Below are positions 6,389 through 50,976 of a stretch of DNA of 64,000 nucleotides, one piece after another; positions within the stretch are counted from its first letter, which is position 1; every line of letters starts with the position of its first letter. Source of the stretch: Escherichia coli (GTDB lineage: Bacteria; Pseudomonadota; Gammaproteobacteria; Enterobacterales; Enterobacteriaceae). The notes under the pieces were generated by a model that was given only the letters and a program-made list of their open reading frames with translations, was not told the DNA's origin and made no database searches. Both the position numbers and the translations under genes were made by a program. The stretch lies in assembly GCF_017348835.2 (NCBI RefSeq), contig NZ_CP071375.1; one strand, written 5' to 3'.

Positions 6389-7267
6389 ATGAGCAAAAAG
6401 CAGAGTTCCACCCCACACGATGCGCTGTTCAAACTCTTTTTACGCCAACCGGACACGGCACGCGATTTTCTTGCGTTTCATTTACCGGCACCCATTCACG
6501 CGCTCTGTGATATGAAAACCCTCAAGCTGGAGTCGAGCAGCTTTATTGATGACGATCTGCGTGAAAGCTATTCCGACGTGCTGTGGTCGGTGAAAACGGA
6601 ACAAGGACCAGGATACATCTATTGTCTGATTGAACATCAAAGCACCTCAAACAAACTGATCGCATTTCGCATGATGCGCTACGCCATTGCCGCAATGCAA
6701 AACCACCTGGATGCCGGACACAAAACGTTGCCGATGGTAGTGCCATTGTTGTTTTATCACGGTATTGAAAGCTCCTATCCCTATTCGCTGTGTTGGCTGG
6801 ATTGTTTCGCCGATCCCAACCTGGCAAGGCAGCTTTATGCCTCTGCATTTCCGCTGATTGATGTCACCGTCATGCCTGATGATGAAATCATGCAGCACCG
6901 ACGCATGGCGCTGCTGGAGTTAATTCAAAAACATATTCGTCAACGCGACCTGATGGGGCTGGTAGAGCAAATGGCCTGCTTATTAAGTAGTGGATACGCT
7001 AATGACAGACAAATCAAAGGGCTGTTTAATTACATCTTGCAAACCGGCGATGCGGTACGTTTTAACGATTTTATCGACGGCGTTGCCGAACGTTCACCGA
7101 AACACAAGGAGAGTTTAATGACTATTGCGGAAAGATTGCGGCAGGAGGGGTTTCAGAAAGGTATACGTGCTATTGCCAAAACCATGCTGGATGCCGGAGT
7201 CCCTCTTGAGGACGTTCTGCGATTTACCGGGCTGTCAGAGGAAGAATTGGCTGCGGCGAACCAGTAG
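6389..7267 (+). CDS. rpnA: Rpn-family recombination-promoting nuclease / transposase-like protein (YhgA)
   Basis: 292-aa ORF at the expected position after feoC; matches recollection of YhgA. Confidence 0.8.
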
Positions 7268-7283
7268 ACACTATCCCCTGCTT

Positions 7284-7329
7284 AAGTGCTACTTTATGCT
7301 ATCTTGCATGTAACACAAAGTAGCACTTA
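7284..7329. promoter_or_regulatory. 13-bp perfect inverted repeat (taagtgctacttt / aaagtagcactta); candidate operator for the downstream toxin-antitoxin pair, or yhgA terminator
   Basis: Arms at 7284-7296 and 7317-7329 separated by 20 bp; sits 10 bp upstream of the antitoxin start codon. Confidence 0.45.
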
Positions 7330-7338
7330 GGAACTGAT

Positions 7339-7608
7339 ATGCAGACAGTGAAATTACGGCAACAAGGAGGAGCCATGATCGTTACTATCCCACGAGATCT
7401 TGCCACCGATCTTGGCTAGTCACCGGGCACAGAGCTTACCGTGGAGAAAAAGGGCGATAGCGTTAATTTACGCGCAACCGGGCACAAACCGCGTGGGCGT
7501 CTTACCGTCGCGCAGTTGTTGAGCCAGATCGATGAAAGCGAAATTACGCAGCTAAATCAGTCCACAGAAGGATGGGCTGAAGGGAAAAAAGGTAATGAAG
7601 CATGGTAA
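7339..7608 (+). pseudogene. PemI/MazE/ChpS-like (AbrB/SpoVT fold) antitoxin interrupted by an in-frame TAG at 7417-7419
   Basis: Hand translation MQTVKLRQQGGAMIVTIPRDLATDLG*SPGTELTVEKKGDSVNLRATGHKPRGRLTVAQLLSQIDESEITQLNQSTEGWAEGKKGNEAW; SD agga upstream of ATG 7339; 3' end overlaps toxin start by 7 nt. Confidence 0.7.
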
Positions 7609-7970
7609 AGGCACGGACGCCACATCGTGGTGAGATCTGGTATTTTAACCCTGATCCGGTTGCCGGGCATGAACTTCGGGGTCCACATCATTGCATTGTG
7701 GTAACGGACAAAAAACTCAACAATGTTTTAAAAGTTGCTATGTGCTGCCCGATTACAACAGAGGCAAATGCAGCACGTTCCACAGGGGTGACGGTGAACG
7801 TCCTCCCCCATGATACGCAAACCGGTAACCTGCATGGCGTTGTGCTCTGTCACCAGCTAAAAGCTGTCGATCTTATTGCCCGTGGCGCTAAATTTCATAC
7901 CGTTGCCGATGAAGCATTGATTAGTGAGGTGATCGGTAAACTGGTGAATTTAATCGACCCACAACAGTAG
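7602..7970 (+). CDS. PemK/MazF/ChpB-family endoribonuclease toxin
   Basis: 122 aa; RGEIWYFNPDPVAGHELRGPHHCIVV...CCPITT...LHGVVLCHQLKAVDLIAR parallels MazF/ChpBK/PemK; no counterpart at this position in my recollection of K-12. Confidence 0.8.
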   Translation: MVKARTPHRGEIWYFNPDPVAGHELRGPHHCIVVTDKKLNNVLKVAMCCPITTEANAARSTGVTVNVLPHDTQTGNLHGVVLCHQLKAVDLIARGAKFHTVADEALISEVIGKLVNLIDPQQ

Positions 7971-7984
7971 CCCTGACTTATCAC

Positions 7985-9476
<1,492 letters not shown>

Positions 9477-28267: not shown

Positions 28268-28365
28268 GCCTGATGCGCTACGCTTATCAGGCCTACGTGG
28301 TTTATGCAATATATTGAATTTGCATGATTTTGTAGGCCTGAGAAGGCGTTCACGCCGCATCAGGC
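28268..28365. repeat. BIME-like pair of REP elements downstream of glpD
   Basis: gcctgatgcgctacgcttatcaggcctac (28268-28296) and gtaggcctgagaaggcgttcacgccgcatcaggc (28332-28365). Confidence 0.65.
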
Positions 28366-50881: not shown

Positions 50882-50976
50882 AAAAAAAAAGCCAGCACCC
50901 GGCTGGCTAAGTAATACTGGAAGCAATGTGAGCAATGTCGTGCTTTCAGGTTCTCCGCGAGGGTCTTCCTGATCGC
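50882..50976 (-). ncRNA. ryhB: Fur-repressed small RNA RyhB
   Basis: Minus strand reads GCGATCAGGAAGACCCTCGCGGAGAACCTGAAAGCACGACATTGCTCACATTGCTTCCAGTATTACTTAGCCAGCCGGGTGCTGGCTTTTTTTTT, matching RyhB including the terminator hairpin and U-run. Confidence 0.9.

What the first reader, a model, noticed from the sequence alone, without database searches (positions are those of the whole stretch)
7417..7419. In-frame amber (TAG) codon at codon 27 of the antitoxin while the toxin gene is intact
The antitoxin reads ...TDLG*SPGTEL...; family members have Leu or Asn at this position, so a single TTG-to-TAG change is plausible. An intact MazF-like toxin with a truncated antitoxin is normally not tolerated, which raises several possibilities: the toxin is inactive; the C-terminal neutralising segment is expressed from the internal in-frame GTG at 7441; the host carries an amber suppressor; another antitoxin cross-protects; or it is a sequencing error.
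Basis: seen in the sequence. Interest (0 to 1): 0.7.

Follow-up and report, generated by a model that had tools for sequence, protein, structure and literature searches.

The report
Amber-knocked-out antitoxin in decaying toxin-antitoxin cassette
The stop codon is a real, inherited single-base mutation (TGG to TAG) that disables the antitoxin of a small E. coli toxin-antitoxin cassette; databases already flag it as a pseudogene, and it looks like ordinary gene decay.

Summary
The TAG at 7417-7419 is real. It is codon 27 of an 89-codon AbrB/MazE-type antitoxin gene (7339-7608) that overlaps an intact 122-aa PemK/MazF-type toxin gene (7602-7970), between rpnA and bioH of E. coli.

All intact orthologous alleles read TGG (Trp), so the change is G-to-A at 7418, not TTG-to-TAG. 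RefSeq already marks this gene "pseudo, internal stop" in two pig isolates from China and Australia.

It is not a sequencing error. The same haplotype occurs in many assemblies and in at least four chromosomal backgrounds. It differs from an intact haplotype by this one base within the two genes. One host, PE164, has wild-type glnV/glnX, so there is no supE.

The toxin allele carries Y30H, at a position where His is almost never seen in relatives. A large TAG sub-lineage has since gained G10V at a superfamily-invariant glycine.

Best reading: a chromosomal toxin-antitoxin cassette in mutational decay, tolerated because this toxin is no longer lethal by itself. Rescue by a 55-aa restart fragment from GTG 7441 is not excluded. 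Low interest.

The parts
7283..7329 (.). Imperfect 19-nt inverted repeat (arms 7283-7301 and 7311-7329) just upstream of the antitoxin start. It is the presumed operator or promoter region. The window-lineage A at 7296 (G in the other alleles) breaks one pair.
   Evidence: the repeat finder; allele comparison; palindrome check. The promoter scan found no consensus sigma-70 site. Antitoxin binding is inferred by analogy with MazE and Kis, as described in PMC4803016.
7339..7608 (+). AbrB/MazE/SpoVT-type antitoxin gene of 89 codons, now a pseudogene. It can only yield a 26-aa N-terminal peptide.
   Evidence: PGAP annotates it 'pseudo, internal stop'. The NCBIfam and Pfam matches are weak.
7417..7419 (+). 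Amber codon TAG at codon 27. It derives from TGG (Trp27) by G-to-A at 7418.
   Evidence: The intact sister haplotype L015/L031 differs within the two genes only at 7418.
7441..7608 (+). In-frame GTG-initiated 55-aa ORF, 21 nt after the TAG. It covers the last beta-strand and the whole C-terminal region, which aligns with the toxin-binding tails of MazE, ChpS and Kis. It is a candidate restart product.
   Evidence: The ORF is listed and the alignment is. It is deposited as 'Antitoxin [E. coli D6-113.11]' CDU34619.1. Only GAG lies 6 nt upstream as a Shine-Dalgarno sequence. Expression is untested.
7602..7970 (+). Intact 122-aa PemK/MazF-superfamily toxin gene (Kid/ChpB-like). Its start overlaps the antitoxin stop, and its own Shine-Dalgarno AAGGT lies 8 nt upstream.
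   Evidence: Pfam PF02452. Kid structure 1m1f matches at E=1.6e-16. NCBIfam scores are below all equivalog cut-offs.
7689..7691 (+). Toxin codon 30, CAT (His). The other six E. coli alleles have TAT (Tyr). It lies next to invariant H29, which aligns with the catalytic Arg of MazF (R29) and with Kid R23.
   Evidence: His at this column occurs in 0 of 21 close relatives and 1 of 126 superfamily representatives.
7755..7764 (+). Toxin codons 52-54 (T-T-E). S52T aligns with MazF T52 and Kid T46. G54E is the other change specific to this allele.
   Evidence: Thr is the superfamily majority at 52 (100 of 126), so S52T is probably harmless. Position 54 is variable within the family, and E is also found in P0002.

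Best explanation
The TAG is a genuine, heritable G-to-A transition (TGG Trp27 to TAG). It abolishes the full-length antitoxin of a small chromosomal type II toxin-antitoxin cassette inserted between rpnA and bioH. The toxin belongs to the PemK/MazF superfamily and is Kid/ChpB-like. The antitoxin is of the AbrB/MazE type. The cassette is in mutational decay.

The 26-aa product cannot form the AbrB-type dimer, so DNA binding and full-length neutralisation are lost.

The mutation is tolerated, and has spread by homologous recombination into several E. coli lineages, because the toxin made from this allele is not lethal on its own at native expression. The most likely reason is that the toxin was already weakened before the TAG arose; Y30H next to the presumed catalytic His29 is the candidate change. 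Loss of translational coupling to the upstream reading frame may reduce toxin synthesis further.

Shown: the mutation, its ancestry, its spread, and later toxin changes. Inferred: that the toxin is weak.
For: **Real and inherited**
- The cassette is identical in PE164 (China) and F2_81 (Australia).
- All 24 contigs read that share the window's rpnA allele have the same layout.
- The TAG is present in every locus retrieved through the 55-aa ORF.

**Single-step origin**
- Haplotype L015/L031 has the same toxin and the same antitoxin allele but reads TGG. In the 717-bp cassette it differs only at 7418 and at intergenic 7981.
- So no cis compensation followed the TAG, and the toxin changes came before it.

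**Several backgrounds**
- TAG loci differ from the window by 1-1.7% over 18 kb, but by only 1-3 bases in the kilobase that holds the cassette.
- A fourth flank type appears.

**Frequency**
- This toxin allele was seen on 159 contigs. Its intact cognate antitoxin was seen on only 8.

**Toxin oddities**
- All 21 close relatives, down to 55% identity, have Tyr at position 30.
- His at this column is found in 1 of 126 superfamily representatives.

**Continuing decay**
- A TAG sub-lineage (85 index blocks, against 348 for the window's toxin allele) carries toxin G10V.
- G10 is invariant in the family, is kept in the Kid, ChpBK and MazF sequences aligned with it, and is Gly in 120 of 126 representatives.
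- None of the 24 contigs read with the G10V toxin has an antitoxin call. The three sequenced loci read TAG.

**Selection**
- Among intact alleles the antitoxin is constrained (dN/dS 0-0.39). The toxin is only weakly constrained (0.2-1.9).

**Literature**
- Decay of E. coli chromosomal toxin-antitoxin systems through nonsense mutations, and through inactive-toxin mutants arising by drift, is described in PMC7167474.
- Kis-Kid translation is coupled (PMC3920265 and PMC7167474).
Against: - No activity data exist for any allele of this toxin.
- Y30H could be a specificity or co-evolution change. The antitoxin changed too on the same branch (E48G, E71Q).
- S52T restores the superfamily consensus, and E54 occurs in another allele, so only one of the three toxin changes is unusual.
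- The toxin ORF remains intact in every TAG locus seen.
- The post-TAG changes are too few for a selection test: two non-synonymous, one synonymous and one intergenic.
- From my own recollection, not checked here: a kis amber mutant of plasmid R1 kills without suppression, and chpS and mazE could not be deleted in the Keio collection. So lost coupling alone is unlikely to be enough.
Confidence: 0.55

Rival explanations
1. Headless antitoxin. Ribosomes that terminate at TAG 7417-7419 re-initiate 21 nt downstream at GTG 7441. They make a 55-aa fragment that keeps the whole C-terminal toxin-binding tail. The toxin is active but neutralised, and the cassette persists as a working toxin-antitoxin pair without autoregulation.
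For: GTG 7441 is the first in-frame start after the TAG. Residues 35-89 align with the C-terminal toxin-binding regions of MazE, ChpS and Kis, including the conserved LAELL-like helix and the terminal Trp. MazE's C-terminal domain is the toxin-binding part and its N-terminal domain binds DNA (PMC4803016). Some annotators already call this ORF 'Antitoxin'. From my own knowledge, not checked here: restart after nonsense codons is classical in lacI and T4 rIIB, and the C-terminal 41 residues of CcdA are enough to neutralise CcdB. The toxin ORF is intact in all TAG loci.
Against: The Shine-Dalgarno sequence is weak, with only GAG. GTG 7441 is an ancestral Val codon, and no mutation improving a start site arose with or after the TAG. 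The fragment lacks the dimerisation domain, which gives bivalent binding. A large TAG sub-lineage has acquired G10V at an invariant toxin glycine. That fits decay, or relief of residual toxicity, better than a stably balanced pair.
Confidence: 0.2
2. Cross-protection. A related resident antitoxin, such as MazE, ChpS or a plasmid PemI/Kis, neutralises the orphan toxin in trans.
For: The C-terminal tail of this antitoxin shares motifs with MazE, ChpS and Kis. mazEF and chpSB are near-universal in E. coli (my own knowledge), which would fit tolerance in several backgrounds. Antitoxin cross-interaction is the subject of reviews PMC7354431 and PMC10305079 (listed; not read).
Against: Identity to MazE, ChpS and Kis is only 21-23%, and cognate specificity is the rule. 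The toxin scores below the ChpB and MazF equivalog cut-offs. The presence of mazE and chpS in PE164 was not checked here.
Confidence: 0.1
3. The TAG is read through, either by an amber-suppressor tRNA in the host or by high natural readthrough, so full-length antitoxin is still made.
For: Any inserted amino acid might be accepted, because this column is Trp or Leu in relatives.
Against: In PE164 both tRNA-Gln(CUG) genes keep the CTG anticodon. The window holds no tRNA genes. The first 60 listed of the 155 genomes with a perfect supE-type glnV are almost all named laboratory or K-12-derived strains. The allele occurs in at least four unrelated backgrounds, which a rare suppressor cannot explain. 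The other tRNA genes were not scanned.
Confidence: 0.03
4. Sequencing or assembly error: the true codon is TGG.
For: None beyond the fact that it is a single-base difference.
Against: The base is the same in two complete genomes from different laboratories and continents, in more than 20 draft assemblies, and in independent metagenome and Logan contigs.
Confidence: 0.01

Closest known systems
parD (kis-kid / pemI-pemK) of plasmids R1 and R100
   Same: Kid is the closest solved structure to the toxin (1m1f, E=1.6e-16; 36% identity in alignment A2). The gene order is the same: the antitoxin comes first, the reading frames overlap, a palindrome lies upstream, and the antitoxin has an AbrB-type N-terminal domain with a C-terminal toxin-binding tail. 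Kis-Kid translation is coupled.
   Different: This locus is chromosomal and sits between rpnA and bioH. Kid's catalytic R73 and D75 are L82 and H84 here, and Kid R23 is His29. The antitoxin is only 23% identical to Kis. Here the antitoxin carries a fixed nonsense mutation.
chpSB (chpBI-chpBK) and mazEF of E. coli K-12
   Same: Same superfamily and the same operon architecture. At the Kid R73/D75 columns the toxin resembles ChpBK (L and N in ChpBK, L and H here). S/T52 aligns with MazF T52.
   Different: The NCBIfam ChpB model scores 61.7 bits against a cut-off of 129, and the MazF model 43 against 120, so this is not an orthologue. It forms a narrow clade of its own: only three 50%-identity cluster representatives reach E<=1e-30, and the named relatives are Enterobacterales genera plus Gallibacterium. 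The catalytic Arg29 of MazF is His in every member.
Decaying chromosomal toxin-antitoxin systems of E. coli (ccdO157; the Fiedoruk 2015 inventory)
   Same: A chromosomal islet with patchy distribution (43 of 5,426 complete genomes), a conserved insertion site, and degeneration by nonsense mutation. This matches the description in PMC7167474 and PMC2654758.
   Different: In the usual picture the toxin is visibly inactivated first. Here the first overt lesion is in the antitoxin, while the toxin ORF stays open. The disabled haplotype has also moved between lineages.

Membership tests
Type II toxin-antitoxin module, PemK/MazF toxin with AbrB/MazE antitoxin | The toxin has the PemK/MazF (SH3-like barrel) domain. 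| tested here: met
   PF02452 is precomputed on this exact protein. Kid 1m1f matches at E=1.6e-16 and MazF structures at 1e-5 to 1e-7.
Type II toxin-antitoxin module, PemK/MazF toxin with AbrB/MazE antitoxin | A small antitoxin gene lies immediately upstream in the same orientation, with overlapping reading frames. | tested here: met
   The antitoxin stop is TAA 7606-7608 and the toxin start is ATG 7602. The layout is the same in Pantoea, Pectobacterium and Gallibacterium.
Type II toxin-antitoxin module, PemK/MazF toxin with AbrB/MazE antitoxin | The antitoxin N-terminus is an AbrB/SpoVT/MazE swapped-hairpin domain. | tested here: inconclusive
   PF04014 hits are only faint or weak. TIGR01439 scores 21.2 against a cut-off of 28.3. 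It aligns with MazE, ChpS and Kis at 21-23% identity. PGAP names it AbrB/MazE/SpoVT.
Type II toxin-antitoxin module, PemK/MazF toxin with AbrB/MazE antitoxin | A full-length functional antitoxin is encoded. | tested here: not met
   An amber codon sits at codon 27 of 89. In this window the module is a remnant, not an intact pair.
Type II toxin-antitoxin module, PemK/MazF toxin with AbrB/MazE antitoxin | The toxin is growth-inhibitory and is neutralised by the cognate antitoxin. | not testable with these tools
   No experimental data were found for this locus.
Kid/PemK, ChpBK or MazF equivalogs | The score reaches the NCBIfam equivalog cut-off, and the catalytic residues are conserved (Kid H17/R73/D75; MazF R29/T52). 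| tested here: not met
   Scores are 91.7<150 (Agrobacterium-type MazF), 61.7<129 (ChpB) and 43<120 (MazF). H23 aligns with Kid H17 and is kept. R73 and D75 are L82 and H84, and R29 is H29. This is a separate subfamily.
Pseudogene by nonsense mutation | An in-frame stop interrupts a frame that is uninterrupted in close orthologues, and the change is a single-base substitution. | tested here: met
   TGG in six other alleles, and in an otherwise identical haplotype. PGAP flags 'internal stop'.
Amber suppression (supE/glnV type) | The host carries a tRNA with a CUA anticodon. | tested here: not met
   In PE164 the tRNA-Gln genes at the metT-glnV locus have anticodons ttg, ttg, ctg and ctg. Only this locus and this host were examined.

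The most novel reading that the evidence does not exclude
The TAG allele is not a dead remnant. It is a re-wired, still addictive module. A restart product from GTG 7441, a headless antitoxin without its DNA-binding domain, neutralises a still-active toxin from a now de-repressed operon. This selfish pair has spread between E. coli lineages by recombination. G10V then marks lineages that later escaped it.
Probability: 0.15. Interest if true: 0.5.

Novelty: already known. Interest (0 to 1): 0.22.

Why it matters
It matters little beyond annotation. The locus is an uncharacterised Kid/ChpB-like subfamily, and the nonsense allele is already flagged as a pseudogene in RefSeq.

The case does give a tidy natural series for studying how toxin-antitoxin cassettes die:
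- the intact pair;
- the same pair with one amber mutation;
- that pair plus toxin G10V.

If the toxin proved to be active, the allele would be a natural example of neutralisation by a restart-made antitoxin fragment. It would also show a disabled-looking cassette still spreading by recombination.

Tried and rejected
- **Promoter and terminator scan of 7200-8050.** No consensus sites were found, so I make no claim about the effect of the A7296 operator variant on transcription.
- **RNA fold of 7420-7640.** The aim was to see whether the toxin ribosome-binding site is sequestered once upstream translation stops. The z-score was -0.48, no different from shuffled sequence, so there is no structural argument for or against coupling.
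- **Genome-wide supE search with a CTA-anticodon glnV query.** It found 155 perfect matches, but only 60 rows are listed, almost all named laboratory or K-12-derived strains. That was inconclusive for PE164, so I read the PE164 locus directly.
- **Literature search for this locus** (bioH, yhgA, toxin-antitoxin). Nothing relevant was found.
- **Mine et al. 2009 (PMC2666520).** The paper is not held. I cite it only through reviews.
- **CcdA41 precedent.** No usable paper was found. It rests on my own knowledge.
- **dN/dS after the TAG.** There are only four mutations, so the test has no power.
- **An alternative true start at ATG 7375 (M13).** It is preceded by a strong AAGGAGG and is used in Shigella flexneri annotations (77 aa). 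I rejected it because the preceding KLRQQGG is conserved as protein across genera, and M13 is Ile or Leu elsewhere.
- **Structure prediction.** Not run. The tool returns no coordinates, so burial of Y30 could not be assessed.

Full report
**Observation**

The window is E. coli chromosome in the order feoC, rpnA (yhgA, 6389-7267), a two-gene cassette, bioH (7985-8755, minus strand), gntX. The cassette is a toxin-antitoxin (TA) pair.

From ATG 7339 the frame reads 26 codons, then TAG at 7417-7419, then 62 more sense codons to TAA 7606-7608. The next gene, ATG 7602 to 7970, is an intact 122-aa PemK/MazF-superfamily protein. Its start overlaps the upstream stop (ATGGTAA).

**Ancestral codon**

Megablast finds the 717-bp cassette in only 43 of 5,426 complete E. 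coli genomes, always between rpnA and bioH. Two of them are 100% identical to the window: PE164 (pig, China) and F2_81 (pig, Australia).

The other alleles are 95.8-96.7% identical and encode an uninterrupted 89-aa protein with Trp at codon 27 (TGG). The lesion is therefore G-to-A at 7418, not TTG-to-TAG. Orthologues in Pectobacterium and Gallibacterium also have Trp. Pantoea, and the MazE, ChpS and Kis sequences that I entered from memory, have Leu.

**Not an error, and not private to one strain**

- A look-up of the exact toxin protein shows it on 159 contigs. The intact version of its own antitoxin allele is on only 8.
- Reading the loci shows that haplotype L015/L031 has the same toxin and the same antitoxin allele with TGG. 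Across the cassette it differs from the window only at 7418 and at intergenic 7981.
- TAG-bearing loci fall into at least four flank types.
- Over 18 kb, three of them differ from the window by 1-1.7%, while the kilobase holding the cassette differs by 1-3 bases. A fourth type appears.
- All 24 contigs read that share the window's rpnA allele have the TAG layout.

Three things follow. The allele is real. It arose once by a single step, without cis compensation. It has since been carried into different lineages, most simply by homologous recombination through rpnA and bioH. Tolerance therefore cannot depend on a rare trans factor of one strain.

**Suppressor**

The window has no tRNA genes. In PE164 I located the metT-leuW-glnUW-metU-glnVX cluster. 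The four tRNA-Gln anticodons there are ttg, ttg, ctg and ctg, so there is no supE.

**What the module is**

The toxin's closest solved relative is Kid of plasmid R1 (E=1.6e-16); MazF structures follow. It scores below the NCBIfam cut-offs for ChpB, MazF and the Agrobacterium-type MazF.

It belongs to a narrow clade. Only three 50%-identity cluster representatives reach E<=1e-30 among 1.84 billion proteins. The named relatives are Enterobacterales genera plus Gallibacterium.

In this clade H29 is invariant where MazF and Kid have the catalytic Arg. S52 sits where they have Thr. Kid R73 and D75 are L82 and H84.

The antitoxin aligns with MazE, ChpS and Kis over both the N-terminal AbrB-like part and the C-terminal tail. 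In MazE that tail is the toxin-binding segment (PMC4803016). A 19-nt inverted repeat at 7283-7329 lies upstream.

**Why the amber allele is tolerated**

Compared with the other six E. coli alleles, the window's toxin has three changes, all non-synonymous: Y30H, S52T and G54E. All three predate the TAG.

| Change | Close family (21 relatives) | Superfamily (126 representatives) | Assessment |
|---|---|---|---|
| Y30H | all Tyr | mainly Pro, Tyr or Phe; His in 1 | unusual |
| S52T | all Ser | Thr in 100 | restores the consensus; probably harmless |
| G54E | variable; Glu also in P0002 | Gly in 65; Glu in 1 | probably tolerated |

Only Y30H stands out, and it sits next to the presumed catalytic His29.

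Loci retrieved through the 55-aa ORF were chosen without regard to the toxin. All of them read TAG. Of the eight that cover the toxin gene, five have the same toxin, and three carry G10V plus a synonymous change; one of those three also has V67I.

G10 is invariant in the family, is kept in the Kid, ChpBK and MazF sequences aligned with it, and is Gly in 120 of 126 representatives. The G10V allele is listed in 85 index blocks, against 348 for the window's toxin allele. None of the 24 contigs read has an antitoxin call, and the three sequenced loci read TAG. So the toxin is now being hit at conserved residues after the loss of the antitoxin.

Among intact alleles the antitoxin is well constrained (dN/dS 0-0.39). 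The toxin is only weakly constrained (0.2-1.9).

Reviews describe exactly this process for E. coli chromosomal TA loci: decay by nonsense mutations, and inactive-toxin mutants arising by drift (PMC7167474; PMC2654758).

My best reading, at about 0.55, is a TA islet in decay. Its toxin allele was already too weak to kill at native expression. Synthesis may be lowered further because translation of the toxin gene is no longer coupled to an upstream reading frame; coupling is documented for Kis-Kid.

**Rivals**

- **Restart at GTG 7441 (about 0.2).** It is the first in-frame start, 21 nt after the stop, and the 55-aa product keeps the whole toxin-binding tail. Against it, the Shine-Dalgarno sequence is weak, no start-improving mutation accompanied the TAG, and G10V points to decay or escape rather than a balanced pair.
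- **Cross-protection by MazE, ChpS or a plasmid PemI (about 0.1).** Not tested.
- **Suppression (about 0.03) and sequencing error (about 0.01).** Both are effectively excluded.

**Verdict**

The interpretation list is partly right. The biology is ordinary TA decay, with a modestly interesting population history.

Noticed in passing
L047:1484-1545 (Escherichia marmotae CP025979.1), compared with window 7106-7150 and 7339-7380: In E. marmotae the antitoxin gene starts 20 nt after the rpnA stop, with AAGGAGAGTTTAATGACTATTGCAGAAAGATTACGGCAACAAGGAGG. This is a second copy of an internal rpnA segment (protein MTIAERLRQ...) fused to the antitoxin at the shared LRQ(Q/E)G motif. The palindromic operator seen in E. 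coli is absent there. The chimeric 90-aa antitoxin (P0038) is listed in 608 index blocks. It may mark the original insertion or recombination junction of the cassette.
   Followed up: partly
window 7364-7377: A strong internal ribosome-binding site (AAGGAGG, then ATG 7375 = Met13) lies inside the antitoxin gene. Shigella flexneri annotations start the protein there (77 aa, on at least 1,000 contigs). Conservation of the upstream KLRQQGG residues argues that ATG 7339 is the real start.
   Followed up: partly
window 7296: The window allele has A where the six other E. coli alleles compared have G; the intact TGG sister haplotype shares the A. This breaks one pair of the 19-nt inverted repeat upstream of the antitoxin, which would otherwise match at 18 of 19 positions. 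The change predates the TAG. Its effect on repression or promoter strength is unknown.
   Followed up: partly
L021/L022 (Pectobacterium) 1229-1866: The orthologous TA pair in Pectobacterium sits between a CRISPR cse1 gene and a cas3 gene, inside a type I-E cas locus. In Pantoea it lies next to a YefM-YoeB pair.
   Followed up: no
window 50883-50947 (-) and 28289-28331 (-): Rfam matches above the gathering score: RyhB sRNA (83.1 bits) and ES036/CssrF sRNA (43.6 bits). Both are expected features of this E. coli region.
   Followed up: no
L003 1-183 (E. coli O145:H28 RM12581): feoB is annotated as frameshifted in this one O145:H28 genome. This is unrelated to the TA cassette.
   Followed up: no
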